Shown: piece by piece, positions 41,275 through 61,245 of the stretch
Layout of the letters: each line of letters begins with the position of its first letter
Numbering within the stretch: the stretch's first letter is position 1
Assembly: GCA_964537195.1 (NCBI GenBank)
Contig: CAZHYZ010000001.1
Span: 5,522-69,521 of the forward strand
Origin: an uncultured Methanosarcinales archaeon
Lineage (GTDB): Archaea; Nanobdellota; Nanobdellia; Woesearchaeales; GW2011-AR15
Direction of reading: 5' to 3'
DNA: 64,000 bases
Program-made: the position numbers and the translations under genes
The notes under the pieces: generated by a model
Databases searched by the model: none
What the model was told of the DNA's origin: nothing
The model's input: the letters and a program-made list of their open reading frames with translations, nothing else

Positions 41275-41325
41275 TTCTTAAAAAAACTTTTATAGTCTTT
41301 CCATATACACATTTCTGGTGATATT

Positions 41326-42036: not shown

Positions 42037-42067
42037 TTTTTTAAAGATTATTCTCTTATATTTTTTT

Positions 42068-42193
42068 ATGAAACAAATATTCTGCCCTAAGTGTAATTCA
42101 ACTAAGTTGAAAAGTCTAGGAAACTCTTATTATAAATGTCTTAGTTGTGGTTATACAGGTACTTTAACAGGTCAAGGAATAATAAAAAAATAA
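42068..42193 (+). CDS. Small Zn-ribbon protein (41 aa)
   Basis: Hand translation MKQIFCPKCNSTKLKSLGNSYYKCLSCGYTGTLTGQGIIKK with two CxxC pairs; not in the ORF track because it is under 60 aa. Confidence 0.35.
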   Translation: MKQIFCPKCNSTKLKSLGNSYYKCLSCGYTGTLTGQGIIKK

Positions 42194-42194
42194 A

Positions 42195-42605: not shown

Positions 42606-42661
42606 AATATACTATTCTAAGAGAAGTTTATATAAAAATGTTTTCATTTAAGAGTAGAAAA

Positions 42662-42827
42662 TGGGGACACAGGGAATTTCACATATAAAGAAATAAACTT
42701 TATATGATTTGAACCCCGATCTAGCGGTCACTTCCTCGGAACGACTGACCGCGCTTAATTCATCGTCTTTCGACTCATCGCTCCATGACTGGAGCCGCTT
42801 ATACTAGCCAGGTTGTACTATGTCCCC
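42662..42827 (-). tRNA. tRNA-Trp(CCA) with two introns (about 60 nt after position 37; about 32 nt between T-loop and 3' T-stem)
   Basis: Hand-folded on the minus strand: acceptor GGGGACA/TGTCCCC (7 bp perfect) plus discriminator A; U8A9; D-stem GUAC/GUAU; anticodon stem AGCGG/CCGCU with loop CUCCAGA; T-stem CGGGG/CCCUG with consensus loop UUCAAAU; mature length 74 nt. Intron 2 forms the perfect hairpin CATATAAAG/CTTTATATG. Confidence 0.6.
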
Positions 42828-42861
42828 TTGAAAAGTAAGAAAAATATAATGTTTAAAAAGT

Positions 42862-44538: not shown

Positions 44539-44549
44539 AATCTGAGAAA

Positions 44550-46388
44550 TTACTTTCCGAATTGTTTTTTTACAATATCAACTATTTTTTTACCTTCTGC
44601 TTTTCCCCTTAGTTTTCCCATGACTTTTCCAACAATTGCATTTAAGGGAAGATTTTTGTTTTTATCAATTATTTTTTTAATTTCTTTTTCCAACACCTTA
44701 TCAGACATTAGTTCGTATTCCGAATAATCAACTTTTTTTCCGTGAGACAACTCAATTAAAATTTCAAAGACAGCATCCTTACTGATTTTTTTCTTATTTA
44801 ATTTTTCAAATATATCCTCGATATATTCTTCGATATTTATTTCTCTTCCATATCTTTTCCTAATTTCTTTTGGTGACTCAATAATTGTTCTGGCAATAAA
44901 GTCAGAACTTATTTTTTTGTATTTCTTGATATATTCCTCAAAATTCAAGTTACTGTCTATTAATTCTTTAGCCAGAGACTTCGAGATATCATGTCTCTTT
45001 GAGAGTCTATTGATTTTATCAGTGATTAACTCAGGAATTTTTATTGAATTAAGGAGAGTCTTAGTTACGTCAATATTTGGAATGTCTGTTTCAGGATACA
45101 ATCTGTGTGCTCCTGGCAAGGGTCTTGCATATGATGAAGTAGCATCATGGTGGTTTGGGACTCTTGTTTCTTCAGGCACGCCTTTTAATGCATAAATTGA
45201 TCTATCATAAACAGAATTAATTGCCCTTTCTACAGTTTCCTTTCCTTCAGCAACTATTAGTATTAAATCGTTCTTTTCTGCTTTGAATTCTCTTTTTAGA
45301 CAATCAAATTCATTTTCAAGTTTATACTTCTTGAGGTCTTCATCAGTGTGTATCATTCCTTTTGTTCCATAAGCAACAGCATAATCTGCTAATTCCTTTC
45401 CAAAGGTTTTTCCCGGACAAATTTCTTTTTTTAAGAGCCCTGAGAAGTTAGGTAATAACAGACCATAAACTTTCCCGCCATTCTTAATTATCTTTGATAT
45501 AATTTTAGACTTTGTTTTTGTAAATATGTTTGTAACATCTTTGGTTTTTTTACTGAACTTCTTTAATTTTCTTTTTTTAAGTTCTTTTTTTATCTTTAAA
45601 AGACTAATTTGTCTAAGCACTTCGTTTTCAACAAGTTCGGGCAATTTATTTAGGTCTTGCCATCCCTTGACTTCTATTCTTGCTCCTCCTTTAATTGAAA
45701 CATTTACATCCTGTCTTATTGTGCCGAGTCCGCGTTTAACTTTGAAAGACCGTAGCAGTGTTCCAATTTTCTCAGCAACTTCTTTAACATGTTTAGGATT
45801 TTTTATTGAAGCATCAGTTCCAATCTCAAGAAGAGGGATACCTTGTCTTGATAATGAGTAAAATACTTTGTTCCCTTTTTTTCCCTCTATTTTACAGGCG
45901 TCTTCTTCTAGATTAAGTTGAATAATCTTTACTTTTCCCAGGTTTGTTTCAATAAAAGAATTTTTGTTTTCTATACCTACTAAAATAGTTCTCTGAAATC
46001 CAGCAACAGAACTCCCATCAGTTACTGTCTTTCTCATAATACAAATGCTGTCAGGAACCTCAAGCTTGAATAATTTTGCAACACCTAGAGCAATCTTAAA
46101 AGCTTCTTTGTCTAAGGGCCGGGGTGGTTCCTCATCCAAGTCAACAAGACAAGACTCATTTTCATAACCATGGTAAACAAATTCTCTATCTCTTATTTGT
46201 TCATATGCACTTGCAAGATCCACCTCCCCGGTCTCTCCAGCCACGGCCCTCAATTTTCTTTGTACAGTAGAGATGAGATTTTCTTCATTCATAGAAGAAG
46301 AACAATTACAGAATAGTTTGTTTGTATCAAGCTCCTGATGTATTTCAATACCTGCTTTGAATCCCAGGTTTTTATAATCCAAACCCAT
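44550..46388 (-). CDS. gatE: Glutamyl-tRNA(Gln) amidotransferase subunit E
   Basis: N-terminal MGLDYKNLGFKAGIEIHQELDTNKLFCNC matches the archaeal GatE signature; 612 aa with a C-terminal YqeY-like tail. Confidence 0.9.
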   Translation of the reverse strand: MGLDYKNLGFKAGIEIHQELDTNKLFCNCSSSMNEENLISTVQRKLRAVAGETGEVDLASAYEQIRDREFVYHGYENESCLVDLDEEPPRPLDKEAFKIALGVAKLFKLEVPDSICIMRKTVTDGSSVAGFQRTILVGIENKNSFIETNLGKVKIIQLNLEEDACKIEGKKGNKVFYSLSRQGIPLLEIGTDASIKNPKHVKEVAEKIGTLLRSFKVKRGLGTIRQDVNVSIKGGARIEVKGWQDLNKLPELVENEVLRQISLLKIKKELKKRKLKKFSKKTKDVTNIFTKTKSKIISKIIKNGGKVYGLLLPNFSGLLKKEICPGKTFGKELADYAVAYGTKGMIHTDEDLKKYKLENEFDCLKREFKAEKNDLILIVAEGKETVERAINSVYDRSIYALKGVPEETRVPNHHDATSSYARPLPGAHRLYPETDIPNIDVTKTLLNSIKIPELITDKINRLSKRHDISKSLAKELIDSNLNFEEYIKKYKKISSDFIARTIIESPKEIRKRYGREINIEEYIEDIFEKLNKKKISKDAVFEILIELSHGKKVDYSEYELMSDKVLEKEIKKIIDKNKNLPLNAIVGKVMGKLRGKAEGKKIVDIVKKQFGK

Positions 46389-46440
46389 GTTATTGTTGAT
46401 AAAGGTATAATTTAAAAAATTATTGAAAACAAGACACAGA

Positions 46441-47808
46441 TTATATTCTCTCTTTAAAATCGCAACTTCCTGAGAGTGGTTTATTGGGGTTGTTCATCTT
46501 ATCAATTAATTTACTTTTTAGTCTTTTTACAACCTCTTCTCTTTCAAAAAATAGGTTGTTTTTTTCTTCAGAATCATTTTCCAGATCAAACAATTCACTC
46601 TTATCATCTATTATAAAGCATTTTGATGATACACGTTCAATATCCGCAATATACTTCCAGTTGTCTTCTATTAATGCAATCTTCTCACCATATAATTCAC
46701 TAATAATTACTTTATTTTTATTTTCAATATGGTTTTCCCCCCCTAACATCATTTCTTTAAGAGAGGTTCCTTGAATATACTTGGGAGATTCTAACCCTAT
46801 CAAATCTAATGTTGTTGGTAATATGTCCAGAGAACTTACCCTTATTTTTACTCTCCTTTTTTGACCCTTTGGAACATAGATTATTAATGGAACCTTTATT
46901 ACTTCATCATATAATGTAATCCCGTGTCCTATGCGTTTGTGTTCATAGAATTCTTGTCCGTGGTCACCAGTTAGTATTATTATTGTGTTGTCTAAAATTC
47001 CTTTTTCTTGTAACTTATCAATAAACATCCCAAACTTCTTATCCATTTCATATAGTTCTGCATCATATAATGTTTTAAAATATTCCATGTTTTCTTTATT
47101 CATATCAAGAAACCCAAACTTTCCAGCTAAATAATTACTCTCTTTTGTTAGATTTTTATCGAACAATTCAATGGTTTCTGGTTGTGGAGAATATGGAGAA
47201 TGAAGTTTGTAAGAGTGGAGAAACATAAAAAACTTTTCTGAGTTGTTGTAATTATCTATTAGGTAAAAAGCATTTTTCCAGTAGTTTTCTTCTTTTTCAT
47301 AAGATTTTTCATAACTCTGAGAAGAGTTGCTGTATGAACTGTAAAATTCATCAAAACCCCTTTCAAAACCCCTTTCAAGATTTAAAAATTCGAGCCAGAG
47401 CGGCGCCACCCAAATATTTTTGTAGTCTTTTTCTTTTAACAACTCAGGTAGAGTATAGATTTCATTTGATAAAGTTGAATCTTGGCTGACATTGTACAAT
47501 TTGTGATAAGAAGGCACAACAGAAGTGAAGATAGACATCTGACTTGGCAAAGTCCAGGAGGATGTTGAATATACATCTTCAAATAAAGTGGATTTCTCAG
47601 CAAATTTGTCAATATTTGGTGTTGTGTTTCTAGGATATCCATAGGTGCCAAGGTGGTCGGATCTCAATGTAGTAATAGATATTAGGATTATATTACAATC
47701 TTTACAGTCTGTTTCGTTTTGTATTTCTGATAATGAATAGAGAATTCCTAAAGCAATTAGACTAGCAAAAATAAAAAAAACAACAAACTTTTTCTTTTTA
47801 TCTAGCAT
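46441..47808 (-). CDS. Sulfatase-like hydrolase/transferase (alkaline phosphatase superfamily)
   Basis: Signal-anchor; ILISITTLRSDHLGTYGY N-terminal metal-binding motif and the TGDHG motif typical of sulfatases/LTA-synthase-like enzymes. Confidence 0.7.
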   Translation of the reverse strand: MLDKKKKFVVFFIFASLIALGILYSLSEIQNETDCKDCNIILISITTLRSDHLGTYGYPRNTTPNIDKFAEKSTLFEDVYSTSSWTLPSQMSIFTSVVPSYHKLYNVSQDSTLSNEIYTLPELLKEKDYKNIWVAPLWLEFLNLERGFERGFDEFYSSYSNSSQSYEKSYEKEENYWKNAFYLIDNYNNSEKFFMFLHSYKLHSPYSPQPETIELFDKNLTKESNYLAGKFGFLDMNKENMEYFKTLYDAELYEMDKKFGMFIDKLQEKGILDNTIIILTGDHGQEFYEHKRIGHGITLYDEVIKVPLIIYVPKGQKRRVKIRVSSLDILPTTLDLIGLESPKYIQGTSLKEMMLGGENHIENKNKVIISELYGEKIALIEDNWKYIADIERVSSKCFIIDDKSELFDLENDSEEKNNLFFEREEVVKRLKSKLIDKMNNPNKPLSGSCDFKERI

Positions 47809-47812
47809 TTTT

Positions 47813-48415
47813 CTAGTAAATACAAACAGTTTCCAACATTATTGATTCATAATCTTTTATTTCTTCCTTAAGAGGAAGAAACATTTCAATAACATATATT
47901 GAATTGTCACATTGTTTATAGTATAAAATACTTCTGAATTCTATTAAATCCCAGGAACATGCACCATATGTGTATCTGTTTGTTGCATACAATAAAAAAT
48001 AATTGAATGGTAAATTCAATTTTTCTTTAGGAAGAAAGGATTTATCACAAGATATTGTTTGTGAGATTCTTCCAGGATAAGGTGAGGGCACTTCTTTGTA
48101 TAATGATAGTAAAATTTTTCTTTCTTCATTTATGAAATAAATTATTTCTGTCTGATTTAGATTATTTATTCTTTTAATCCTTATTGTGGTGTTTTTCCCT
48201 TTTCCTGTGAAAAGATCATAGTTTTGATGATTGATGAATTCAAAATCTATCTCTTTTATTATTTCATTCTCTATACCAAGGCTTCTTTGATTTGGAAATA
48301 ATTTAATTATTATAACAAAAAAAATAGAAAGAAAAAGAACCAAACAAAAAAATTTGTAGAGCGATATTTTATTTTTTCCCATATTATTTAAATATTTCTC
48401 TGAGGATTTTACCAT
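47813..48415 (-). CDS. Small signal-anchored protein, paralogue of 50442-50972 (partner protein A)
   Basis: Shares PSPYPGRIS, YGACSWDL and SILYY motifs with the 50442-50972 protein; lies immediately downstream of the PDE gene with an overlap. Confidence 0.4.
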   Translation of the reverse strand: MVKSSEKYLNNMGKNKISLYKFFCLVLFLSIFFVIIIKLFPNQRSLGIENEIIKEIDFEFINHQNYDLFTGKGKNTTIRIKRINNLNQTEIIYFINEERKILLSLYKEVPSPYPGRISQTISCDKSFLPKEKLNLPFNYFLLYATNRYTYGACSWDLIEFRSILYYKQCDNSIYVIEMFLPLKEEIKDYESIMLETVCIY

Positions 48416-50399
48416 CTACATCATTTGGACTTTCAATATTTAGCAAGTGTAGAATGGTTGGATATTGATCTACATGTTCAATTGGTTTACTCAATTCATA
48501 ACCTTCTTTTATTCCCGACCCTGCTATGATGAAAGGGGACCACATTCCTTTTGTTTCATTTGCAAAGATAGCCTGTTTGTAACCGGTTTTTAATGGTGTG
48601 TCAAATATTTTCCTGTCTTCTGTCATTTCCTCATTCCAACCATAGCCTGCCTCGTTTGCAATAATCAAATCTCCGACACGATCTTTTGGCAAATCAAGAT
48701 ATTCACTTACGTCTTCCCATTTTACAACTGCCCTGACAGGATTCTCGCCGGTTTCTGGATCTTCAATATCCCTTAAGCTGTTTATCACTTCTTGTCTGAG
48801 TTTCTCATATTCTTCTCCAGATGCTCTTGTCCAGTTTCCATCCAATCCCTCTGGATCAATATAGATGTTGTCCATTTTTAGATATATTACTTGGCTATTT
48901 TTCCAGTCAATTATTGGTTCTCCTGTTGTTGGATCAATTTCAAAATCTAACCATCCTTTCTCAGCAAAAAAATTGTTTAATCTCACCCATTTATTTAGTG
49001 GAACTGCTCCATGATCAGAACTGAAAACGATAATTGTGTTCTCATCAGAAACTTTGAGAATTTCTCCAACCATCTTGTCTAACTCTTTATACATATCTTT
49101 TACTTCTTTCCAGAGTTCTTCCCTTGTTTGATTATCTACTTCATTGTATCTCTTGCTAACAGGATCAATATATCCAAGCCACCACCTGCTTGTTAGCATT
49201 TGGTTTGGTGAATATATGTCATGTATTATTACATCAGGATTGTAGGTTTCATCTACAAAAGAAATTTCCTTGGTGTGCCAATCAAAAGACATGTTCATTT
49301 CTTCTAGAAACGTTTTCTTGTCCTCCGGATAATATATTAATTGTGGCGGGAAATTATCTACAAAATCAACCATAGGCCCCAGGTTCTCATTAAACTCAGT
49401 TCTAACAGAAGAAGGTTTCACATTATATTCATTTAGGTTGTTGTAGAAGAGTCTTATTCTAAAAAAGCCATCATCTTCCAATTTGATTATGTTTATTATT
49501 ACGTGTGTGTCTACATCAAGTGAGTTCCAATTAAGAACCAAGGGATTCCATTCACTCCACTCTCCCTGTTCTAAAACGGCCCATTTGTTTCTTTTATCAG
49601 GAGAGAATAAGATTTTATTGTAATTCTCAGACTCATCATTTGTACTGTCATATACATATCCATAAATTTTTTCTCCCCAACCAGAAAGTTCTATCTCAAA
49701 AGGTGGAGAATACGACTTTGGATTCAAAGTCCAATTTTTTGGCTCATTAGTTTTAATATATCTTGTGAGCTCAGGACCAAAAAAGAACAACCTAGAACCT
49801 CGTCCCTGTTTTTTTCTCTGGCTTAAATTCGATTCATATTCAAAGTTAATAGCATGAAAATCTGCCCCCCAACCACCCCATCTTCCTCTGATTGTCATTC
49901 CTTTGTCTAACTCAGGGGGCGTAGATCCGGGCATTGATAATAAAGCAACATTTAAATCATTTTTTTCTAGAGTTGTCCATATTGGTTCATTTTTCTTTGC
50001 TACAGAAGAAAATCCTGCTACTGAAACTTTATTTAATGGTGCACCTTCAACGTGCATGGGCCCATCTGCTACCCCATGTTTTTCAGGATATGTGCCTGTT
50101 AATAGTGTAGCGAAGTTTGTTGGAGTGTGGCTTGGAAAAGTCGGAATAGAATAACCATATGATCCTTTTTCCATTAATTTTTTTATATTAGGTAATTCCC
50201 CGGCCTCGGCCCACTCGAACAACTTAAATAAATCCGGATCTGCCCTCACACCATCCGGAATGAACCAGTATAGTTTTAATGATTTATCTTTTTCAATTTT
50301 TTTTTCTGAGTTTATAGTGCAAGAAACACCAAATATTAAAATAAAAATGAGAGACACAAAAATAACATTTTTTTTATTCAATTTATACACCCCAATCAA
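48384..50399 (-). CDS. Type I phosphodiesterase / nucleotide pyrophosphatase family (alkaline phosphatase superfamily), secreted
   Basis: Signal-anchor; PTFPSHTPTNFATLLTGTYPEKHG matches the Phosphodiest family metal/nucleophile motif; 671 aa. Confidence 0.65.
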   Translation of the reverse strand: MIGVYKLNKKNVIFVSLIFILIFGVSCTINSEKKIEKDKSLKLYWFIPDGVRADPDLFKLFEWAEAGELPNIKKLMEKGSYGYSIPTFPSHTPTNFATLLTGTYPEKHGVADGPMHVEGAPLNKVSVAGFSSVAKKNEPIWTTLEKNDLNVALLSMPGSTPPELDKGMTIRGRWGGWGADFHAINFEYESNLSQRKKQGRGSRLFFFGPELTRYIKTNEPKNWTLNPKSYSPPFEIELSGWGEKIYGYVYDSTNDESENYNKILFSPDKRNKWAVLEQGEWSEWNPLVLNWNSLDVDTHVIINIIKLEDDGFFRIRLFYNNLNEYNVKPSSVRTEFNENLGPMVDFVDNFPPQLIYYPEDKKTFLEEMNMSFDWHTKEISFVDETYNPDVIIHDIYSPNQMLTSRWWLGYIDPVSKRYNEVDNQTREELWKEVKDMYKELDKMVGEILKVSDENTIIVFSSDHGAVPLNKWVRLNNFFAEKGWLDFEIDPTTGEPIIDWKNSQVIYLKMDNIYIDPEGLDGNWTRASGEEYEKLRQEVINSLRDIEDPETGENPVRAVVKWEDVSEYLDLPKDRVGDLIIANEAGYGWNEEMTEDRKIFDTPLKTGYKQAIFANETKGMWSPFIIAGSGIKEGYELSKPIEHVDQYPTILHLLNIESPNDVDGKILREIFK

Positions 50400-50976: not shown

Positions 50977-52266
50977 TTATTTTGATTTGTTGTTTTGTGT
51001 TTTATTTAACATTTTCTCTTTACATTCTTCTGAGTACTTATCTGGTAGCTTGTCACAAACTTTTGGATCATTATAAAACTCTGACATTAAAATTTCTGTC
51101 AGTAATAAATTATAGCAAAAATTACTATGTTTGTCTTTGAAGGTTGTGCTATTTACAGATATTTCTGAACATTTTTTAACACCTTCCTCAATATCAAGCA
51201 GTAAATATTCACTTAAATAATAAATATACCCAAGTATGCACTCCTCTTTATATTTTTCCGGAAAATCCTCACAAAGCTCGTGTGTGTTCTCCATCCTGTC
51301 CTCAAACCAACCGTGCCTTGCTATTTTAATGAAACATAAGTCAGATAAATTCTTATCTTCTAGGGATTTACAATAGTTAAGATCTATCTTCATGTCTTCA
51401 TTATAGCTTAACATAATACCAAAGATTCCCTCAAAACAAAAATTACGAAACCCAGAGGTATTACACAAAGCAAAGGATTCATTTTTTTTATTTATGTAGT
51501 ATGTTCCGCCTAGTCCCCCATAACAGTCTTTTTTAAATTCTTTGTTTGTTATATTACAAAACAACTCTGTCTTGTTAGATTCTAATAGATAAACAACATG
51601 ATCATGGCATCCAAAATATTTTGAAGTGCTGCTGAGAGTACATAACTCATCAATTATTTTAAGATTAGGTTCTTTTGTTTTAGAAATCTCGTCTGCTAGA
51701 AGGAAAAAACATTCAGACCTCCAATTTTTATCCTTAATTTCAGAACAGAAGTTCTTGTAGTCTTTGATATTTGATTCAATTGAAGACTTGTTCAGACTTA
51801 GGGAGGTCATTACATAATATTGGCACTCACCAGCGAGGGCCTCATTCTCTAAATCACAAATTTCTTTTACCTTAGAAACATTTTTCTTTCCATATTTTAT
51901 TGCTTCAAGAAAGATTGTATGAATCTGATAATAATCTTCTTCCGCACTTATGTTCTTTGTTATAAATTCCACCATGTGAGGTCTATCGATTATTCTATTA
52001 CAGATCCTTTTTATGTATGGGTTCTGAATATATGAAATAGAAACTTCTGCTTCATCCAAGGGACCACTGCTTCTCAATTGAAAGATTAATTTGTCTTTGT
52101 AACACAAATCTTTTTTAAGACCATTTCTTATATCCTGACAATCAAAAGTGAAGGAATTCATTGTATTATTAATGGTGTTGTCTAGATTAGGATTATTGCA
52201 GGAGTTAATTAAAAACAGGATTAACGCCATAAATATAACTGTGGTCTTTTTATTAAGATTAATCAT
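50977..52266 (-). CDS. Secreted Cys-rich protein (hypothetical)
   Basis: Signal peptide then regularly spaced Cys pairs along its 429 aa; no family recognised. Confidence 0.4.
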   Translation of the reverse strand: MINLNKKTTVIFMALILFLINSCNNPNLDNTINNTMNSFTFDCQDIRNGLKKDLCYKDKLIFQLRSSGPLDEAEVSISYIQNPYIKRICNRIIDRPHMVEFITKNISAEEDYYQIHTIFLEAIKYGKKNVSKVKEICDLENEALAGECQYYVMTSLSLNKSSIESNIKDYKNFCSEIKDKNWRSECFFLLADEISKTKEPNLKIIDELCTLSSTSKYFGCHDHVVYLLESNKTELFCNITNKEFKKDCYGGLGGTYYINKKNESFALCNTSGFRNFCFEGIFGIMLSYNEDMKIDLNYCKSLEDKNLSDLCFIKIARHGWFEDRMENTHELCEDFPEKYKEECILGYIYYLSEYLLLDIEEGVKKCSEISVNSTTFKDKHSNFCYNLLLTEILMSEFYNDPKVCDKLPDKYSEECKEKMLNKTQNNKSK

Positions 52267-54799: not shown

Positions 54800-54883
54800 G
54801 CCCTCATAGCTCAGCGGTAGAGCGACAGTCTCGTAACTAGCCAAGAAAACTGTAGGTCGGGAGTTCAACTCTCTCTGAGGGCT
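54800..54883 (+). tRNA. tRNA-Thr(CGU) with a 12-nt intron at the canonical position
   Basis: Acceptor GCCCUCA/UGAGGGC plus discriminator U; D-stem GCUC/GAGC; anticodon stem ACAGU/ACUGU, loop CUCGUAA; T-arm GGGAG-UUCAACU-CUCUC; intron ACTAGCCAAGAA at 54836-54847. Confidence 0.75.
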
Positions 54884-55329: not shown

Positions 55330-55917
55330 GTGTGCTTTCTTTTTTGGATGGCGGTAAAGAAAATCCCTATGCAGAGAATCCGTGAGCAATACAAGAAGTT
55401 AAATATAGATAGAAGATGGTTTCTTCTGCTATTTGTCTTGCTTGTTTTATCTTTTTTCATTAATATATGGCCATTTGTTTTTTTGATGTTGTTTAGTGTA
55501 GCAAATGCTTTACTGCTTTCTATTGATAGATATGTGCAAGCCCCACTTGATTTAGAGTTTTCAACATTCTCTGCTGTCTTGATGACAATGGAATATAATG
55601 TTAAGTGGGGAATTGCTGCAGCAATATTGACAAAAATAGCAGGCATAATTTATAATAGAAATGTTAGGATGGATCACTTGTTTATGGTTATTGGTTATAT
55701 TATAGCAGCAATTACTGCAAGCCTTTTTTCTGGGATGGGTGTTGCTTCAGTAGGGATTATCTCAACGTTAGTTGTTAATCTTTATATTGTGTTTGTTTCT
55801 AGATTTATTACAATGCTTTCTACATATGAGATTATTATGTATGGTAGCTCAAACACAATCTTTAACATAGTTCTTTTTATTGGGTTTGGAGATCTCTTTA
55901 GAATATTAATGTTTTAG
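55330..55917 (+). CDS. Integral membrane protein, tandem paralogue 1
   Basis: Shares RW.FLL.FV...SFFI..WP..FL.LFSV.N..LLS..RY..AP.D.E.STFSA.LMT with the next gene; 5-6 TM helices. Confidence 0.45.
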   Translation: MCFLFWMAVKKIPMQRIREQYKKLNIDRRWFLLLFVLLVLSFFINIWPFVFLMLFSVANALLLSIDRYVQAPLDLEFSTFSAVLMTMEYNVKWGIAAAILTKIAGIIYNRNVRMDHLFMVIGYIIAAITASLFSGMGVASVGIISTLVVNLYIVFVSRFITMLSTYEIIMYGSSNTIFNIVLFIGFGDLFRILMF

Positions 55918-55952: not shown

Positions 55953-56516
55953 ATGTCTAGAAAAAAAAGTTCTCCAAGCAAAAAGAGACATCTGAAATTC
56001 AAAGTAGATAAAAAGTGGCTCTTTCTTGGATTATTTGTGTGGATAATTTCTTTTTTCATTGATGTGTGGCCAATTATTTTTTTAACTTTTTTTTCTGTAT
56101 TGAATTCAATGATGCTTTCTTTTAAGAGGTATTTTGACGCCCCTGCGGATATAGAACTATCAACTTTTTCCGCTATCTTAATGACTAATCAGTATGGTCT
56201 TACATATGGCATTATAACAGCAATCGTCACAAAGCTTGTTTCCATGTTGTATATTAAAGTGATAAAAGTAAATTATTTTTTCATGATGACATCCTATGTT
56301 GTGGCTGCAATATTGGCAGAAGTATTCTCAGGAATGAATATAGTTACTCTGGGTTTACTTGTTACAGGTTTATCAAATATATATGTAAGTTTTGTAAGAA
56401 AGTTTGTAGTCCAATATTCTACTTTTGAGATAATATCTTATGGACTTACTAATATTATATTTAATGTTGTTATGTTTGTTGGGTTTGCTGAATTAGTATT
56501 GAAAATCATGATATAA
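55953..56516 (+). CDS. Integral membrane protein, tandem paralogue 2
   Basis: Collinear similarity to the 55330-55917 product over its whole length. Confidence 0.45.
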   Translation: MSRKKSSPSKKRHLKFKVDKKWLFLGLFVWIISFFIDVWPIIFLTFFSVLNSMMLSFKRYFDAPADIELSTFSAILMTNQYGLTYGIITAIVTKLVSMLYIKVIKVNYFFMMTSYVVAAILAEVFSGMNIVTLGLLVTGLSNIYVSFVRKFVVQYSTFEIISYGLTNIIFNVVMFVGFAELVLKIMI

Positions 56517-56545: not shown

Positions 56546-57136
56546 ATGACACATTATTACTCAGAAAAACAAAATTCTGAAGTTAGCTTAAAAAAAATTC
56601 ATATAGGAGTTAAGGGATTAAGTTTTGATATATTTACTGCTCAAGGAGTTTTTTCAAAAGATAAGCTGGACAAAGGTACGAAGACACTTATTGAAAATTG
56701 TGTTATTGAAAAAGATTGGTCTGTATTGGACATGGGTTCTGGTTATGGTGTTGTGGGGATTTCTATAAAGAAATTATTTCCTTCTGTTAAGGTTGTTATG
56801 GCAGACATAAATGAAAGGGCAGTTATGCTTTGTAAGAAAAATATCAAGTTGCACAAATTGAAAGAAGTAAGAGCTATTAAAAGTGATATATATTCTGAAA
56901 TAGAAGGAGACTTTAATACAGTCTTAGTGAATCCTCCCCAGACAGCAGGTAAAGAGATTTGTTTTAGCATTATTGAGGGTGCTAAAAAACATCTTTTTGA
57001 AAGGGGATTGTTGCAATTAGTTGCAAGACACAGAAAAGGTGGTGTATCTTTAGAAAAAAAGATGAAAGAAGTCTTCGGAAATGTTGATACAATTGCTAAA
57101 TCTGGCGGATACAGAGTTTATGTTAGTAAGAGGTAA
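56546..57136 (+). CDS. Class I SAM-dependent methyltransferase (RsmC/RlmG small-domain type)
   Basis: VLDMGSGYGVVGI SAM-binding motif I and the LVNPP catalytic motif (NPPF/H-like). Confidence 0.75.
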   Translation: MTHYYSEKQNSEVSLKKIHIGVKGLSFDIFTAQGVFSKDKLDKGTKTLIENCVIEKDWSVLDMGSGYGVVGISIKKLFPSVKVVMADINERAVMLCKKNIKLHKLKEVRAIKSDIYSEIEGDFNTVLVNPPQTAGKEICFSIIEGAKKHLFERGLLQLVARHRKGGVSLEKKMKEVFGNVDTIAKSGGYRVYVSKR

Positions 57137-57171
57137 AATTTATATAATGTGTTTGCAGTAAACTAATTAAT

Positions 57172-60100
57172 ATGAAATCCACAAAAAAATCTCAGATATC
57201 TTTATTTCTTATAGTGGGCTTGGTTTTGTTATTAGTTGTGTCCCTATTTGTAGTTGTAAGAATAAATATGAAGCGAGCAGATGTACAACAAGTTAAACAA
57301 GAAAGTATTACTTTTCAAAATCTTGAAGAAGATGCAGGATTGTATGTTGAAGATTGTATTGAGCAATCTGTTTTTGAGGGTATAGAGAATTATGGTCTTG
57401 ATTCACCAGGCATTCTTGAAGTATATGTAGGTGAACAGATTATGATTTGTACAGATGAGTTTAAGATATATGAGAACATAGCAGAGATATCTGAGGAAGA
57501 ACCAGTTGTCAATGTTGAGATTAATGACGATATAATTAATTTTAATATAGATTATCCAGTAATTTTTTCAAAAGGCGAAGAACAATTCAGATTAAAAAAA
57601 TTCAGCTATAGTTTTAGGACTAACACCTTAATTGATTCTGACGGCGGCATAATTGAAGAAGGCACAGTATATACAACAGAAGATGGAAGATTGAATCTTT
57701 ATTTTTCTGACGATACTACAGTAACAAAAGACGGTGATAGTGTTGATGCTATTAGTTTGAATGTTGAGGACGAACATATAAATGGATTGTCTAACGCTGT
57801 TGTGATAGGTTCTGTTTTATATGAAGGATTGCCTCATGGAGCAAAATTTAATCCTGCCATTGAGGTTACAGTTGAGCTTGATGAAGAAGACATTCAAGGT
57901 CTAGATACTTCTGCATTGAAATTAGCATATTATGATGATGATGCAGATTTGTGGATAACATATCCTAGTTACTTTGATGAAGAAAACATGGTTGTTCGTG
58001 GTAAAGTTGATCATTTCTCTTTGATATCCGTATCAATGTGTGGTTCAAGCGTGGATGGACAAGCTACAATGCAAATGAGTACAGGAGAGAAGACCTTTCC
58101 TATGGAGTTTATTTTTAAAGATCCTTTTTTAGATGGAGAAGACAACGGATGTAATCCAACCCATTGGATGTATAACTCTCTAGAGGATGACGAACACGGC
58201 AGTTATGGTTTTCATTTGTTGCCTGAATTCATGTCTTCTTTTGAATGCGAGTATGATAATTATGATATGACTACTTACTATTATGGAGAAGAATTTCCTG
58301 TGGATGTATGTGATTTAAACTCTGAACATATAAGGGACTGGGATAATGATGATGATCCTGCTTATGAATTTGGTGTTGGAGAAATTAAGATTTCTTTTTC
58401 AGGTATAGAAAACCCTCAAGAATTTACACTTTTTGCAGAAATGTCATCTGATCAAAGTAAGGAAGTTTATACCTATTTGGAAAATAAATGTGTTTCTGCT
58501 GCAAGTGCTTTTGCAAAAGAAAAGATTAAAGAAAAGTTTGACTGGGTTACAGACGACTTAATTAGTGGAGATGGAATTAGAGACGGAGCAACCCTACATT
58601 GTACAGCAGACCTTAGTGGAACAGAAGGAGACACTCTTGATTCCTTTATGGGCAGGGTTGCTATTGGAAGTATTGGAGTGCAATTTAATGAAGGAAGTAT
58701 AACAGATAATTTAGAAAATCCTGATTCTATTTGTTGGGGTGGAGGAAAATGTTCACCAGTCCAGACAATAGAAGATTATGGTGATGGAGTTCCCCTTGTT
58801 CCTGGGGCTACAAAAACCAGATTAGGTTTCTTTGCAACTCCAAAAACATTTGGGTTTGCATTTGAGCAACAAGAGCCATTTCAAGTGCTAACTACTTATG
58901 AAGATATTGGAGCAATAAAAGATGATGTTGACCAAACTTTTCATCCTTTGCTTGGAGAAGGAGAATTCACTTTTTATCTGAGAACTGGAGGAGATGCATG
59001 TGTTAGTTATGAACCTAGTGGATTAGGTTGTTGTGTTAACTCACAACAAGTTGGAGATGAAACAGTCATAACTGACTGCCAAGGAAAGCCCGATGAGAAT
59101 GGGTGTCGGGGGGAATTTTTTGATAAAGATTGTCATGAATTGTCTCAGTGTATAGGGAAAACAAATGATTTAGAAGCATTTCTCATACAAGAAGAAGTAG
59201 AAGTTGAGAATTATATTCTTAAAAGTACACCTTCTAACATAATAACTATTGCTTCTCAGGCAGGTTCAACCCCCATTAAAAACACTATTGCTACAGATCT
59301 TCAAAAAACACAAGGAGAAACAGATTTAAGTGTGGCAAATGATGATGAGTACCTTCCTTTAGTTTATGACATGTCCAAAATTGAGGGAAGAGACTGGTCT
59401 TGTTCTGATACTTGTTTATGGACAATAAATGAAGAACCTGGAAAAATATTGAGCGAGACAACTCAGCAAAAAACAAAATCAACACCTGCCTCTCCGGGTA
59501 AATTGAGATCAGGAACAAACACAGTTAAAGTCAGGGTAGCAAACTTAAATGATGTTTGTATGTATGCTCGGGCATTTCTACAATTAAAAGGACAAGGAGT
59601 TACTTTCTTTGATATCTCTGAAGATGTTGATAGACCACTAACAGAAGATGATTGTAAGGCTGTTGATAGTTGTTGGGTAAGTAGACCAAACATAGAAAAC
59701 GGCGGATTTTGTGTAGTTAAGGGAGAGAATAACGGAGGTTATTGTTGTTTTGGTGCAGAAGAGGGCAATTATATGTACCCATATCCACACTTTGAATATT
59801 TTGGTGACCAAGAATGTAAAGCAAATGAAAACGCACGACCAATGGATGAGTTGAGCTGTACCACCCAGGGTGGAAAATGGACAAATGGTTTTTGTGTTAG
59901 AGCCGGAGAATACAATGCAGAATATTGTGTTGTTGGTCCTACAGAAGAGAAGAATTATGTACATTATGAACTTGCAGAGGAAAATATCTGTCCTTGTGAA
60001 GATGGAAGAGAATGTCTTGTTGCCAGTGAGTGTGAGGTTGTGGATGAATATCATTCTGTGAGATGTTCTCAGACAGAGCAAGGAGAGAGAATGTATTGTT

Positions 60101-61245
60101 GTGATAGAAAAGAACCTGAGGAAGAAGTTATTGAAGAAGAACCCGTAGGACAACTAAGTTGTTCAAGTGGTGGAAATGCAATTATAGATGATAACGGAAA
60201 AAGGTTCTCTTACTGTACTTATGGTTGTAATCCAGGTCAAGATGAATGTAAAGATGATTTGATGAGTTGTCAAAATTCTGTTTGTTATTCTGATTGTTCT
60301 ACTAACTGTGATTCACAAGCAGACGATTATACAGATTGTTTGTTCACATGTCAAGAAAATTGTCCAGAATGTTATTCTGAGATTGACTGTGAGAAATTCC
60401 CCAATTATGAAACCACAGAATGGAAATGTGAAGGTAGCCGAGTAGTTCCACAGACATGTGGGGATGGCAATCTTGATCCTAATGAAGAGTGTGATGACGG
60501 CAACAATGATGATGGAGACGGGTGTAATGCAGAATGTATATTAGAATATTGTGGAGACGGCCTTATTAACAATGTTGATGAAGAATGTGATGATGGTGAT
60601 ACTGTTGGTTTAAACGGTTGCTCAGATACTTGCCAAATAGAAGACGGTTGGACATGTGATGAAGAGCCGTCTGTTTGTGTTAAGGAAGAGGTGACTATTT
60701 CAGATGTTCAGAGAGATAAACTTGAAAAGGAATTTCCTGGAACACGCATTGGAAATGCACAAGTCTTATCACAAATGATAACTACTTGTTATGAGTTATA
60801 TTATAGCCAACTTAAATCTGATTTATATGAATGTTTAGATAATTATGCTCCAAATATTGGACAAATTAACCAATTATCTTCAGATGCTTGGCCTTATACT
60901 TTTACTACTTGTGCAGTCTCTGAACCATATTTACAATGTCTCTGTTATGTAAATGCCTTTGGTGTTGCATCAGGCTACGAGGTATCTACAGCTTATGGTC
61001 TTGTTGGAGTAGACAGTAATTTAGAAGAATATACTGGCGAAAGTCAATTAGCAACAGGAAAATATGTTATATTTGGTGATAGTGCTCCAGGCCACATAGC
61101 ATATATTGTTGGTCAAGATAGTGAAGGAGACTATCTTTATACAGATGCCAACTCAAATGATGTTGGTGGAGTAGTTTATGGTGGAAAACTGAAGAATCAT
61201 CCAAGAGGTCAAATAACATATATAAGCAAAGTACCAAGAACTTAA
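57172..61245 (+). CDS. Giant secreted/membrane-anchored Cys-rich protein with DUF4215-like Cys repeats and a C-terminal CHAP-like amidase/peptidase domain
   Basis: N-terminal signal-anchor; 1357 aa and acidic; CGDGNLDPNEECDDGNNDDGDGCNAEC and CGDGLINNVDEECDDGDTVGLNGCSDTC repeats; the C-terminal QCLCYVNAFG (Cys) and GDSAPGHIAYIVGQDSEGDYLYTDANSN (His) match the CHAP pattern. Confidence 0.7.
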   Translation: MKSTKKSQISLFLIVGLVLLLVVSLFVVVRINMKRADVQQVKQESITFQNLEEDAGLYVEDCIEQSVFEGIENYGLDSPGILEVYVGEQIMICTDEFKIYENIAEISEEEPVVNVEINDDIINFNIDYPVIFSKGEEQFRLKKFSYSFRTNTLIDSDGGIIEEGTVYTTEDGRLNLYFSDDTTVTKDGDSVDAISLNVEDEHINGLSNAVVIGSVLYEGLPHGAKFNPAIEVTVELDEEDIQGLDTSALKLAYYDDDADLWITYPSYFDEENMVVRGKVDHFSLISVSMCGSSVDGQATMQMSTGEKTFPMEFIFKDPFLDGEDNGCNPTHWMYNSLEDDEHGSYGFHLLPEFMSSFECEYDNYDMTTYYYGEEFPVDVCDLNSEHIRDWDNDDDPAYEFGVGEIKISFSGIENPQEFTLFAEMSSDQSKEVYTYLENKCVSAASAFAKEKIKEKFDWVTDDLISGDGIRDGATLHCTADLSGTEGDTLDSFMGRVAIGSIGVQFNEGSITDNLENPDSICWGGGKCSPVQTIEDYGDGVPLVPGATKTRLGFFATPKTFGFAFEQQEPFQVLTTYEDIGAIKDDVDQTFHPLLGEGEFTFYLRTGGDACVSYEPSGLGCCVNSQQVGDETVITDCQGKPDENGCRGEFFDKDCHELSQCIGKTNDLEAFLIQEEVEVENYILKSTPSNIITIASQAGSTPIKNTIATDLQKTQGETDLSVANDDEYLPLVYDMSKIEGRDWSCSDTCLWTINEEPGKILSETTQQKTKSTPASPGKLRSGTNTVKVRVANLNDVCMYARAFLQLKGQGVTFFDISEDVDRPLTEDDCKAVDSCWVSRPNIENGGFCVVKGENNGGYCCFGAEEGNYMYPYPHFEYFGDQECKANENARPMDELSCTTQGGKWTNGFCVRAGEYNAEYCVVGPTEEKNYVHYELAEENICPCEDGRECLVASECEVVDEYHSVRCSQTEQGERMYCCDRKEPEEEVIEEEPVGQLSCSSGGNAIIDDNGKRFSYCTYGCNPGQDECKDDLMSCQNSVCYSDCSTNCDSQADDYTDCLFTCQENCPECYSEIDCEKFPNYETTEWKCEGSRVVPQTCGDGNLDPNEECDDGNNDDGDGCNAECILEYCGDGLINNVDEECDDGDTVGLNGCSDTCQIEDGWTCDEEPSVCVKEEVTISDVQRDKLEKEFPGTRIGNAQVLSQMITTCYELYYSQLKSDLYECLDNYAPNIGQINQLSSDAWPYTFTTCAVSEPYLQCLCYVNAFGVASGYEVSTAYGLVGVDSNLEEYTGESQLATGKYVIFGDSAPGHIAYIVGQDSEGDYLYTDANSNDVGGVVYGGKLKNHPRGQITYISKVPRT

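What the first reader, a model, noticed from the sequence alone, without database searches (positions are those of the whole stretch)
57172..61245. 1357-aa secreted Cys-rich giant protein ending in a CHAP-like cell-wall amidase/peptidase domain
The C-terminal approximately 170 aa contain the CHAP arrangement. A Cys in QCLCYVNAFG is followed some 50 residues later by GDSAPGHIAYIVGQDSEGDYLYTDANSN (His and polar residues). Upstream are DUF4215-like Cys-rich repeats (CGDG...EECDDGN...GCN..C) and a long acidic region that is probably Ca-binding. CHAP domains cleave peptidoglycan or pseudomurein cross-links. In a small-genome archaeon likely to be an episymbiont, a giant surface protein with a lytic domain is a strong candidate host-attachment or host-penetration factor.
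Basis: partly seen in the sequence, partly recalled or inferred. Interest (0 to 1): 0.65.

Follow-up and report, generated by a model that had tools for sequence, protein, structure and literature searches.

The report
Giant surface protein with CHAP-like tip
A 1,357-residue, very acidic, cysteine-rich surface protein of a DPANN-type archaeon begins with a pilin-like membrane anchor and ends in an orphan domain that weakly but consistently resembles a CHAP cell-wall-cutting enzyme, so it may help this archaeon grip or breach another cell, but the enzyme assignment is not proven.

Summary
The ORF is real: 57172..61245 (+), 1357 aa, 65 Cys, 256 D+E against 87 K+R. Two cysteine-rich acidic repeats (TIGR02232/DUF4215) at residues about 1091-1165 are confirmed above threshold.

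The C-terminal CHAP call is only partly supported. Pfam CHAP is the only family hit in five segmentations (E 0.005-0.024, 15.6-17.7 bits, cutoff 26). It covers profile positions 7-78 of 81. C1256, H1308, D1325 and N1327 sit at the spacing of the LysK Cys/His/Glu/Asn residues. The only phage-database hits are one CHAP endolysin family, in register.

NCBIfam, PHROGs, PDB sequence search, a LysK-subfamily HMM and hhalign give nothing significant. The domain has no relative among 1.84 billion representative proteins. Structure prediction was inconclusive.

New here: the N-terminus (KKS|QISLFLIVG plus a two-Cys module) belongs to an unannotated family found in 19 archaeal metagenome loci, and looks like a class III (type IV pilin-like) signal. 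The "secreted" protein is therefore more likely anchored or displayed on a pilin-like stem.

The host lineage is DPANN (Nanoarchaeota/Woesearchaeota-like).

Verdict: a plausible new variant of known DPANN giant surface/lytic proteins. Moderate interest; enzymatic function unproven.

The parts
57135..57146 (+). BRE/TATA-like element (AAAA TTTATATA) about 30 nt upstream of the ATG. This suggests the gene has its own archaeal promoter and a leaderless or near-leaderless mRNA.
   Evidence: Read directly from the sequence. No promoter model was run; this is inference from the known archaeal promoter layout.
57172..61245 (+). Complete ORF, 1357 aa plus stop.
   Evidence: An identical protein (P0001) is on record from an NCBI contig of 222,708 bp.
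57172..57258 (+). Residues 1-29: a class III (type IV pilin-like) signal-type N-terminus. MKSTKK-S|QISLFLIVGLVLLLVVSLFVVV has K at -2, S at -1 and Q at +1, followed by about 22 hydrophobic residues.
   Evidence: The motif [KRN][GAS]Q[IV][ST][LI]F[LIV]I[LV]G is present in the window protein, in P0003 and in all 19 related metagenome ORFs. Q8, F12, I14 and G16 are invariant in the 17-sequence alignment. Motif rules are taken from PMC3387779 and PMC2910488. Cleavage has not been shown.
57259..57621 (+). Residues 30-150: conserved family module with two conserved Cys (C62 invariant, C93 nearly invariant). It is the only part shared by all family members, and it makes up the whole protein in the 156-159-aa members.
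   Evidence: No Pfam, NCBIfam or PDB relative was found.
57622..58041 (+). Residues 151-290: second conserved N-terminal region ending in K(V/I)DHFSL. It is shared with P0003 and with L082/L083 only.
   Evidence: BLASTP gives 28% identity over residues 5-300, E 7e-37. tblastn matches residues 1-288 in L082/L083.
58042..59631 (+). Residues 291-820: acidic region with moderate Cys content (17 Cys) and no recognisable domain.
   Evidence: Composition. No family hit.
59632..60441 (+). Residues 821-1090: Cys-rich region (30 Cys, 11%), acidic, with recurring C-x(11)-CC motifs.
   Evidence: No family hit.
60442..60666 (+). Residues 1091-1165: two cysteine-rich acidic repeats (CGDG...ECDDGN...GC...C) of the TIGR02232 myxo_disulf_rpt / DUF4215 type.
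   Evidence: TIGR02232 scores 68.2 bits against cutoff 20.8, two stretches. DUF4215 scores 28.4 bits against cutoff 27. There is 38-41% identity to bacterial repeat proteins P0002 and P0004.
60667..60909 (+). Residues 1166-1246: linker or N-terminal extension of the last domain. It was predicted helical at low confidence. No relatives were found.
   Evidence: segment 4 gave no family hit.
60910..61242 (+). Residues 1247-1357: CHAP-like core (candidate papain-fold cysteine peptidase/amidase) that runs to the C-terminus of the protein.
   Evidence: Pfam CHAP is the sole hit, E 0.005-0.024, residues 1252-1324 against profile positions 7-78 of 81. The match to the Kakheti25 gp3 CHAP endolysin is in register.
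60937..60939 (+). C1256, candidate nucleophile (QC motif).
   Evidence: It aligns with the catalytic Cys column in the domain-trimmed alignments, where the trimming forces the match. It aligned in 1 of 9 untrimmed runs.
61093..61095 (+). H1308, candidate general base (GH motif), 52 residues after C1256.
   Evidence: It aligns with the invariant His column in 9 of 9 untrimmed and 9 of 9 trimmed MAFFT runs.
61144..61152 (+). D1325-A-N1327, at His+17 and His+19. This is the same spacing as E134 and N136 after H117 in LysK.
   Evidence: D1325 falls in the E/D column and N1327 in the invariant N column in 18 of 18 MAFFT runs. LysK positions were verified on the 4CSH sequence.

Best explanation
The gene encodes a cell-surface protein of a DPANN (Nanoarchaeota/Woesearchaeota-like) archaeon, built in three parts.

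1. **N-terminal module.** It is class III-signal/pilin-like. It inserts into the membrane and is probably cut by a prepilin-type peptidase between S7 and Q8. The hydrophobic helix then stays as a membrane anchor or as a stem that can pack into a pilus-like assembly, as in archaeal pilins and Sulfolobus bindosome proteins.
2. **Spacer.** About 1,000 residues, very acidic and disulfide-rich, ending in two myxo-type Cys repeats. It holds the distal end away from the cell.
3. **Distal C-terminal domain.** About 110 residues. It is a highly diverged CHAP/NlpC-P60-type papain-fold cysteine hydrolase. C1256 would be the nucleophile, H1308 the base, and D1325/N1327 the orienting residues. On contact it would cut peptide or amide bonds in the envelope of another cell. 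The most likely target is the stem or cross-link peptides of bacterial peptidoglycan. This would help attachment, local wall opening or scavenging.

**Shown:** the ORF, its composition, the repeats, the conserved N-terminal family and its motif, and the sub-threshold but consistent CHAP similarity with all four signature residues in place.

**Inferred:** signal cleavage, surface display, the fold, catalytic activity, the substrate and the role in host interaction.
For: **C-terminal domain**
- Pfam CHAP is the only family reported for the C-terminus in five different segmentations. E is 0.005-0.024, always residues 1252-1324 against profile positions 7-78 of 81.
- C1256 to H1308 is 52 residues. 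The Pfam-validated CHAP endolysin gp3 of phage Kakheti25 (29.1 bits, above cutoff 26) has 51.
- D1325 and N1327 lie at His+17 and His+19, exactly as E134 and N136 follow H117 in LysK/4CSH.
- H1308, D1325 and N1327 fall in the invariant H column, the E/D column and the invariant N column in 9 of 9 unconstrained MAFFT runs with 17 real CHAP domains. The alignment also runs to the last strand (GQITYI against GLTHFI), and the protein ends where CHAP domains end.
- tblastn against 2.3 Gb of phage genomes returned only one gene family, this CHAP endolysin, with His on His.
It hits 16 of 30 real CHAPs.
- A model built with a CHAP alignment has a beta-core pLDDT of 70-88. Its best Foldseek matches are papain-like toxins, Tse1/Tae1 amidases and CHAP lysins. 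This shows compatibility only.

**N-terminal module**
- 28% identity over 300 residues to P0003.
- 19 metagenome loci share the [KRN][GAS]Q[IV][ST][LI]F motif and a two-Cys module, including 156-159-aa members that are only this module.
- Archaeal class III signals are defined by positions -2, -1 and +1 with a basic residue at -2. They occur on pilins, binding proteins and proteases (PMC3387779, PMC2910488, bioRxiv 10.64898/2026.04.22.720090).

**Context**
- The window is archaeal and DPANN-like.
- Peptidoglycan hydrolase homologues are reported as prominent in Nanoarchaeota (PMC12352652). GH23 lytic transglycosylases are reported in Woesearchaeota (PMC9723730).
Against: **C-terminal domain**
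- The CHAP score is 8-10 bits below Pfam's gathering cutoff.
- NCBIfam finds nothing for the C-terminal domain, even at E<=10 on the core, and PHROGs finds nothing there.
- phmmer against PDB gives only chance-level cadherin EC1 matches (E 0.2-0.4) on the same His-containing stretch.
- An HMM of the LysK subfamily scores 1.3 bits, and 159 of 2000 shuffles do as well. hhalign gives P 0.0087 and probability 4.6%.
- The phage hits have database E-values of 3-9. A hit of equal score in the plasmid database fell in an antisense frame, which is noise.
- The Cys aligns with the catalytic column in only 1 of 9 unconstrained MAFFT runs.
- No relative of the domain exists among 1.84 billion representatives or 5.8 billion clusters. 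Conservation of the putative catalytic residues therefore cannot be checked.
- AF2 on the single sequence failed (pLDDT 39).
- The hybrid model is circular. It has a low-confidence Cys helix (pLDDT 41-47) and no Foldseek hit at E<=0.001.
- No cell-wall-binding domain was found.

**N-terminal module**
- Position -1 is Ser, not the usual Gly or Ala.
- No class III signal or pilin family was hit.
- No type IV filament ATPase, platform protein or prepilin peptidase was seen in the window or next to family members. The coverage of those checks was incomplete.
Confidence: 0.5

Rival explanations
1. It is an adhesin only. The protein is a pilin-anchored, disulfide-rich surface adhesin or spacer. Its C-terminal domain is a non-catalytic binding module: an unrelated small beta-rich domain, or a CHAP-derived domain that only binds its ligand.
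For: - Other members of the N-terminal family carry long extracellular regions with no recognised enzyme domain. Some carry repeats that look adhesin-like.
- All CHAP evidence is below threshold, and several profile tests are not significant.
- The His-containing segment also gives weak cadherin EC1 matches.
- Large adhesin-like proteins accompany archaeal type IV filament systems (bioRxiv 10.64898/2026.04.22.720090).
Against: - All four CHAP signature residues are present at canonical spacing. Degenerate, binding-only papain-fold domains usually lose the Cys or the His (my own knowledge).
- The cadherin matches have E 0.2-0.4 and no Pfam Cadherin hit was reported.
Confidence: 0.3
2. It is a self-directed enzyme. 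The CHAP-like domain is active but works on the archaeon's own envelope or surface proteins, for example remodelling its own wall polymer or S-layer during division, or processing or cross-linking surface proteins. It would not act on a host or prey cell.
For: - Most bacterial CHAP/NlpC-P60 enzymes are autolysins (established knowledge; also stated for peptidoglycan hydrolases in PMC12352652).
- The window encodes GlmS, GlmU and GlmM-type enzymes for UDP-GlcNAc synthesis and several envelope-related membrane proteins.
- Mur-ligase-domain ORFs occur near family members in two related archaeal loci.
Against: - No murein or pseudomurein synthesis genes were identified in this window.
- A catalytic domain held about 1,000 residues away from the membrane anchor is poorly placed to work on the producer's own wall (inference).
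- A patchy, orphan distribution is more typical of conflict or interaction genes than of housekeeping autolysins (the argument is made in PMC12352652).
Confidence: 0.1
3. The resemblance is chance. The C-terminal 190 residues are a lineage-specific orphan domain with no relation to papain-like enzymes, and the Cys/His/Asp/Asn pattern is coincidental in a Cys-rich protein.
For: - No homologue was found anywhere.
- Only one of four profile libraries reports anything, and that hit is below cutoff.
- Equal-scoring noise exists in tblastn.
Against: - Pfam E-values of 0.005-0.024 already account for all 24,736 models.
- The match is near full length and stable across segmentations.
- An independent search returned a CHAP endolysin, in register, as its only hit.
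- Cys content in this segment is only 3.1%, so Cys richness does not explain the QC motif.
Confidence: 0.1

Closest known systems
CHAP-domain peptidoglycan hydrolases (Pfam PF05257), e.g. LysK CHAPk (PDB 4CSH) and the endolysin gp3 of Pseudomonas phage Kakheti25
   Same: - The order and spacing of the signature residues: QC...GH, then E/D at His+17 and N at His+19.
- Domain length of about 110 residues.
- Cys-His spacing of 52, against 51 in gp3.
- A weak but full-length profile match.
   Different: - Only 11-20% identity to CHAP domains.
- The score is below the Pfam cutoff.
- A 9-11-residue deletion after the first helix relative to LysK-type domains.
- An archaeal host.
- Fused to the end of a 1,250-residue Cys-rich protein rather than to SH3b, LysM or amidase modules.
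- No relatives of its own.
Type VI secretion peptidoglycan amidase effectors Tse1/Tae1 and papain-like toxin domains (PDB 4EOB, 7TVH, 9L5U)
   Same: A small papain-fold hydrolase used against another cell's wall. These are the best structural neighbours of the alignment-guided model (TM about 0.5).
   Different: - The structural matches are not significant (E >= 0.04) and the model was guided by a CHAP alignment.
- Delivery would be by surface display, not by injection.
- No immunity gene was recognised next to the ORF. The neighbours are a methyltransferase and a Na+/H+ exchanger.
Archaeal class III signal peptide proteins: type IV pilins and the Sulfolobus bindosome binding proteins
   Same: A short basic N-region, a basic residue at -2, a small residue at -1, Q at +1, and then a hydrophobic helix of about 20 residues. 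Functional, non-pilin domains can follow the helix (PMC2910488, PMC3387779, bioRxiv 10.64898/2026.04.22.720090).
   Different: - Ser at -1.
- F rather than E at +5.
- No hit to class III signal or pilin models.
- No assembly genes nearby.
- The C-terminal cargo is far larger than in known examples.
- Cleavage is untested.
Giant DPANN surface proteins such as SPEARE of Candidatus Nanohaloarchaeum antarcticus (PMC6642349)
   Same: A very large, mostly extracytoplasmic, membrane-anchored protein of a DPANN archaeon that combines adhesion-type regions with a putative degradative domain, proposed to act at the host contact.
   Different: - No serine protease, laminin-G, toxin or restriction-endonuclease domains.
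- No sequence relation.
- The anchor is N-terminal and pilin-like rather than a C-terminal transmembrane segment.
- Much smaller: 1,357 aa against 3,315-8,553 aa for the large SPEARE proteins.
Archaeal peptidoglycan hydrolases (PMC12352652) and the GH23 lytic transglycosylases of Woesearchaeota (PMC9723730)
   Same: The same lineage range (Nanoarchaeota/Woesearchaeota) and the same proposed purpose: attacking bacterial peptidoglycan from an archaeon that has none.
   Different: - Those are above-threshold Pfam or CAZy hits.
- In PMC12352652 they carry a cell-wall-binding domain as well.
- This protein meets neither criterion, so such surveys would miss it.
Myxobacterial cysteine-rich acidic repeat proteins (TIGR02232 / DUF4215)
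   Same: Two canonical repeats, above both curated cutoffs, 38-41% identical to bacterial examples.
   Different: Only two repeats, against dozens in P0002. They occur in an archaeon and serve as a short module between a Cys-rich stalk and the terminal domain.

Membership tests
CHAP domain (Pfam PF05257) | Profile score at or above the curated gathering cutoff (26 bits) | tested here: not met
   15.6-17.7 bits, E 0.005-0.024, in five segmentations. CHAP was the only family reported each time.
CHAP domain (Pfam PF05257) | Conserved Cys (usually in a QC motif) followed about 50-65 residues later by an invariant His in a GH motif | tested here: met
   C1256 and H1308, spacing 52. The His aligns in 18 of 18 MAFFT runs. 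The Cys aligns in 1 of 9 unconstrained runs and in 9 of 9 trimmed runs, where the trimming forces it.
CHAP domain (Pfam PF05257) | Third acidic or polar residue and an Asn shortly after the His (E134 and N136 in LysK) | tested here: met
   D1325 is at His+17 and N1327 at His+19. They fall in the E/D column and the invariant N column in 18 of 18 runs. LysK positions were verified. The catalytic role of these LysK residues is from my own knowledge.
CHAP domain (Pfam PF05257) | Papain-like alpha+beta fold with the Cys at a helix N-terminus facing the His on a strand | tested here: inconclusive
   The single-sequence AF2 model has pLDDT 39. The CHAP-alignment-guided model has pLDDT 62 with the Cys helix at 41-47. 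The best Foldseek E is 0.044. No coordinates were available to measure the Cys-His distance.
CHAP domain (Pfam PF05257) | Thiol-dependent amidase or endopeptidase activity on peptidoglycan | not testable with these tools
   This needs an enzyme assay.
Cysteine-rich acidic repeat (TIGR02232 myxo_disulf_rpt / DUF4215 PF13948) | Profile score above the curated cutoff; the CxDG...ECDDGN...GC...C pattern | tested here: met
   TIGR02232 scores 68.2 bits against 20.8, two copies. PF13948 scores 28.4 against 27 on the segment but only 18.2 on the whole protein.
Archaeal class III signal peptide / type IV pilin-like proteins | Short basic N-region, basic residue at -2, small residue at -1, then an uninterrupted hydrophobic stretch of about 20 residues | tested here: met
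   MKSTK-K(-2)-S(-1)|Q(+1)ISLFLIVGLVLLLVVSLFVVV. The motif is conserved in the window protein, in P0003 and in all 19 related metagenome ORFs. Ser at -1 is atypical (Gly or Ala is usual) but recurs in 4 family members.
Archaeal class III signal peptide / type IV pilin-like proteins | Match to curated class III signal or archaeal pilin N-terminal models | tested here: not met
   No such family was reported at E<=1 in Pfam or NCBIfam for the whole protein, nor for 10 family members in Pfam.
Archaeal class III signal peptide / type IV pilin-like proteins | Processing by a prepilin peptidase (PibD/FlaK/EppA) | not testable with these tools
   This needs N-terminal proteomics or an in vitro cleavage assay.
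Archaeal class III signal peptide / type IV pilin-like proteins | Genomic linkage to a type IV filament ATPase, platform protein or peptidase | tested here: not met
   None was found among 35 window ORFs scanned, by motif regex, or among the top 25 families of 48 flank ORFs from family loci. Coverage was incomplete, and class III proteins are often unlinked to these genes.
Modular archaeal peptidoglycan hydrolases as defined in PMC12352652 | [quoted passage not shown] | tested here: not met
   The catalytic hit is below cutoff and no cell-wall-binding family was reported.
SPEARE proteins (PMC6642349) | Serine protease, adhesion (laminin-G) and restriction-endonuclease domains | tested here: not met
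   None of these families was reported.

The most novel reading that the evidence does not exclude
A DPANN archaeon displays a wall-cutting cysteine hydrolase at the far end of a rigid, disulfide-rich stalk that is rooted in the membrane, or in a pilus-like fibre, by a class III pilin-type N-terminus. This would be a 'lytic pilin': an unreported way for an archaeal episymbiont or predator to open the wall of a bacterial or pseudomurein-bearing partner on contact. The catalytic domain would be a founding member of a CHAP clade with no relatives among about 15 billion predicted proteins. The N-terminal module would define an unannotated DPANN family of pilin-anchored surface proteins.
Probability: 0.2. 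Interest if true: 0.75.

Novelty: new variant of a known kind. Interest (0 to 1): 0.45.

Why it matters
How DPANN archaea physically engage and exploit their partners is largely unknown, and most of their large surface proteins have no annotation. If the C-terminal domain is an active CHAP-type hydrolase, this protein offers a concrete, testable molecule for wall breaching by a Woesearchaeota-like archaeon. It would also show that domain-threshold surveys of archaeal peptidoglycan hydrolases miss strongly diverged, non-modular cases. Separately from the enzyme question, the conserved N-terminal module ([KR][GAS]|Q[IV][ST][LI]F plus a two-Cys domain) marks a family of DPANN surface proteins, 156 to 1,357 aa long, that appear to use pilin-type targeting for large cargos. 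That bears on how these organisms build their cell surface.

Tried and rejected
**Homologue searches for the C-terminal domain**
- The word-seeded search of 5.8 billion clusters found nothing.
- The exhaustive phmmer over 1.84 billion representatives found only the protein itself and P0007. P0007 is a 2,105-aa tandem-repeat sequence whose 17 weak repeated matches add up spuriously, so it was rejected.
- Metagenome and viral contig scans found nothing.

**Profile and sequence searches**
- NCBIfam gave nothing for the C-terminal domain, and PHROGs gave nothing for it.
- PDB phmmer on the whole protein gave nothing. On the C-terminus it gave only cadherin EC1 at E 0.2-0.4, judged to be chance.
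- A LysK-subfamily HMM gave -2.1 bits (44 sequences) and 1.3 bits (trimmed set), no better than 8% of shuffles.
- hhalign gave probability 4.6%.

**Structure**
- The single-sequence AF2 model was unusable, pLDDT 39.
- The hybrid CHAP-alignment AF2 model with Foldseek is circular and not significant. It is kept only as a compatibility check.

**Other database checks**
- tblastn against plasmids gave one hit at E 1, in the antisense frame of a Streptomyces gene. This is noise.
- PDB search with the Kakheti25 gp3 endolysin found no solved relative by sequence.

**N-terminal module and genomic context**
- The genome-contig scan with the N-terminal profile found nothing, so the source genome is apparently not among the species representatives.
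- The exact-match contig look-up for P0001 found no record.
- The N-terminal family profile against PDB and against viral contigs found nothing.
- Regex and Pfam checks for type IV filament machinery near the gene or near family members found none.

**Ideas considered and dropped**
- A C-terminal sorting signal (PGF-CTERM type) was dropped because there is no terminal hydrophobic segment.
- Ca-binding by the acidic region was left unresolved because there is no motif or family evidence either way.

Full report
**1. The observation**

An identical protein is on record once, from an NCBI contig of 222,708 bp. The protein has 65 Cys, 256 Asp+Glu and 87 Lys+Arg. Cys reaches 11-12% between residues 821 and 1165. 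An AAAA-TTTATATA element at 57135-57146 lies about 30 nt before the ATG. That is the usual layout of an archaeal BRE/TATA promoter with a leaderless or near-leaderless mRNA (inference).

**2. The organism**

The window encodes CDC48, GatE, an ATP-dependent DNA ligase and aIF5B, so it is archaeal. GC content is 30-37%. Its aIF5B is 75% and 74% identical to two MAGs. One is labelled Nanoarchaeota; the other is labelled 'uncultured Methanosarcinales', which is probably a mislabel. It is 57-59% identical to MAGs labelled Candidatus Woesearchaeota. A DPANN (Nanoarchaeota/Woesearchaeota-like) origin is therefore well supported. Genome size and lifestyle cannot be read from the window.

**3. The Cys-rich repeats**

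NCBIfam TIGR02232 (cysteine-rich acidic repeat) scores 68.2 bits against a cutoff of 20.8, with two copies ending at residue 1162. Pfam DUF4215 passes its cutoff on the isolated segment (28.4 against 27) but not on the whole protein. Bacterial repeat proteins P0002 and P0004 are 38-41% identical over this short stretch. Nothing was recognised in residues 291-1090. Ca-binding remains a guess.

**4. The C-terminal domain: evidence for a CHAP-like fold**

- Pfam CHAP (PF05257) is the only family reported for the C-terminus in five different segmentations. It always aligns residues 1252-1324 to profile positions 7-78 of 81, at E 0.005-0.024 and 15.6-17.7 bits.
- I confirmed that my recalled LysK CHAP sequence is identical to PDB 4CSH. 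Its C54, H117, E134 and N136 put the acidic residue at His+17 and the Asn at His+19. The query has D1325 at His+17 and N1327 at His+19.
- In nine unconstrained MAFFT runs with 17 Pfam-annotated CHAP proteins, H1308, D1325 and N1327 always fell in the invariant His column, the E/D column (D in 5 of 17) and the invariant Asn column.
- With domain-trimmed sequences the alignment runs end to end, including the last strand (GQITYI against GLTHFI), with one 9-residue deletion after the first helix.
- tblastn of the 120-aa core against 2.3 Gb of phage genomes returned 34 records, all the same gene: the endolysin of Pseudomonas phage 73/Kakheti25-type viruses. That endolysin passes the Pfam CHAP cutoff (29.1 bits). 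It aligns His on His and has a Cys-His spacing of 51, against 52 in the query.

**5. The C-terminal domain: evidence against, and limits**

- The Pfam score is 8-10 bits below the gathering cutoff.
- NCBIfam and PHROGs report nothing for the C-terminal domain.
- PDB phmmer gives only cadherin EC1 at E 0.2-0.4 on the same His-bearing stretch, which is chance level.
- An HMM of the LysK subfamily scores 1.3 bits and is matched by 159 of 2000 shuffles. hhalign gives probability 4.6%.
- The phage hits have database E-values of 3-9. An equal-scoring plasmid hit fell in an antisense frame of a Streptomyces gene, which shows the noise level.
- The catalytic Cys column is matched in only 1 of 9 unconstrained alignments.
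- The domain has no relative in 5.8 billion clusters or 1.84 billion representatives. The one extra hit, P0007, is a repeat artefact. It also has no relative in metagenome or viral contigs. Conservation therefore cannot be used as evidence.
- AF2 on the single sequence failed with pLDDT 39.
- A model guided by a CHAP alignment reached pLDDT 62 and pTM 0.60, with a confident beta core but a poor Cys helix. Its best Foldseek matches are a papain-like toxin (E 0.044), Tse1/Tae1 amidases (TM about 0.5) and CHAP lysins, and none is significant. This test is circular and shows compatibility only.

Weighing all of this, I put the probability of a CHAP/NlpC-P60-type papain fold at about 0.7. The probability of an active wall hydrolase is lower.

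**6. The N-terminus (new)**

The full-length search found P0003 (781 aa), which is 28% identical over residues 5-300 (E 7e-37). This includes the start: KKSQISLFLIVGLVLL against KRAQITIFIILGLVLL. A profile scan of metagenome contigs gave 19 further loci. Their ORFs range from 156 to 1,176 aa. All begin with [KRN][GAS]Q[IV][ST][LI]F[LIV]I[LV]G followed by a hydrophobic helix, then a module with two conserved Cys. Q8, F12, I14, G16 and C62 are invariant.

A basic residue at -2, a small residue at -1 and the residue at +1 are the determinants of archaeal class III (prepilin-type) signals. Q at +1 is known from EppA substrates. Such signals occur on pilins, binding proteins and proteases (PMC3387779, PMC2910488, bioRxiv 10.64898/2026.04.22.720090). 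The shortest family members are just this module, like pilins. The longer ones carry diverse extracellular regions.

None of the family has a Pfam hit or a solved relative by sequence. The loci are archaeal: MCM, PolD and RNase P p30 are in the flanks. No type IV filament ATPase, platform protein or peptidase was seen near them or in the window. The query has Ser at -1. Cleavage and assembly are therefore inferred, not shown. The module is the only one of its kind in this window.

**7. The most likely mechanism**

The protein is inserted by its class III-type N-terminus and probably trimmed before Q8. It is held at the membrane, or in a pilus-like assembly, by the hydrophobic helix and the small two-Cys head domain. 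The acidic, disulfide-rich region of about 1,000 residues acts as a stalk. The C-terminal CHAP-like domain sits at the distal end, where it can meet another cell's envelope and cut peptide or amide bonds by Cys-His catalysis. Bacterial peptidoglycan is the most likely substrate.

This fits published reports. Peptidoglycan hydrolase homologues are prominent in Nanoarchaeota (PMC12352652). GH23 lytic transglycosylases and pore-forming toxin genes occur in Woesearchaeota (PMC9723730). Giant surface proteins such as SPEARE act at DPANN-host contacts (PMC6642349).

Pseudomurein as a substrate is possible but has no precedent for CHAP. From my own knowledge, the known pseudomurein endoisopeptidases are family C71.

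Rivals:
- A purely adhesive C-terminal module (0.3).
- A self-directed enzyme (0.1).
- A chance resemblance (0.1).

**8. Comparison and novelty**

The protein works like a surface-displayed lysin, but it fails formal membership of CHAP by score and fails the 'modular PGH' definition used in PMC12352652. Its repeats are bona fide TIGR02232/DUF4215. Its N-terminus matches the class III signal pattern but no curated model. The combination of a pilin-type anchor, a Cys-rich stalk with myxo-type repeats and an orphan CHAP-like end was not found in any other sequence searched.

I rate it a new variant of a known kind (DPANN giant surface or lytic proteins; archaeal peptidoglycan hydrolases). Interest is 0.45. 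It is a reasonable experimental target, but the key claim rests on sub-threshold similarity.

Noticed in passing
window 55330-55917 and 55953-56516 (+): Two tandem paralogous multi-pass membrane proteins (195 and 187 aa, 44% identical, E 3e-57) lie upstream of the methyltransferase gene that immediately precedes the giant ORF. Neither has a Pfam family.
   Followed up: partly
window 54800-54883 (+): An 84-nt tRNA scores 59 bits in Rfam, but ARAGORN could not assign its anticodon (it prints 'tRNA-???', anticodon 'cg'). It may have an unusual anticodon loop, an intron or a long variable arm.
   Followed up: no
L082-L100 (metagenome loci) and L001: An unannotated DPANN protein family is defined by the N-terminus [KRN][GAS]Q[IV][ST][LI]F[LIV]I[LV]G plus a module with two conserved Cys. 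Sizes run from 156 to 1,357 aa. There is no Pfam hit and no PDB relative.
   Followed up: partly
L092:184-1464 and L097:2360-3376: Two family members end in repeats with the motif D.F.I...TGEI.FTP, which looks like cadherin-like or He_PIG-type adhesin repeats. Pfam reported nothing at E<=0.01.
   Followed up: no
flank ORFs of L084-L097 (alignment A6): Mur ligase middle and C-terminal domains (best E 3.8e-15 and 6e-20) occur in two flank ORFs of these archaeal loci, next to MCM, PolD and RNase P genes. I did not determine which loci.
   Followed up: no
window 8215-13242 (-): A run of amino-sugar nucleotide genes: GlmS-like (SIS + GATase), GlmU-like (NTP_transferase + Hexapep), an inositol monophosphatase and a phosphoglucosamine/phosphomannomutase. 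EpsG- and DUF2079-like membrane proteins lie at 1378-4253.
   Followed up: no
window 39784-50399 (-): A cluster of putative glycan-degrading or modifying enzymes: a GH116/GDE-like protein, a GH106-like protein, a sulfatase and a 670-aa phosphodiesterase/sulfatase-like protein, with GatE in between.
   Followed up: no
window 35514-37424, 4615-6360, 23621-25111, 22363-23592, 37549-38904, 50977-52266, 29455-30747: Seven ORFs of 409-636 aa have no Pfam family at E<=1e-5 (1e-4 for 29455-30747). They are further unannotated proteins of this lineage.
   Followed up: no
window 13419-14396 (+): An ORF with an ArsR-type HTH domain has a weak match to the S-layer-like outer domain (PF05124, 27.7 bits) in its C-terminal half. 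This is an unusual pairing.
   Followed up: no
P0007 (representative library): A 2,105-aa protein made of about 30 near-identical 60-70-aa repeats reached E 2e-32 against the query only by summing 17 weak repeat matches. It is a caution about multi-stretch scores in the exhaustive search.
   Followed up: yes
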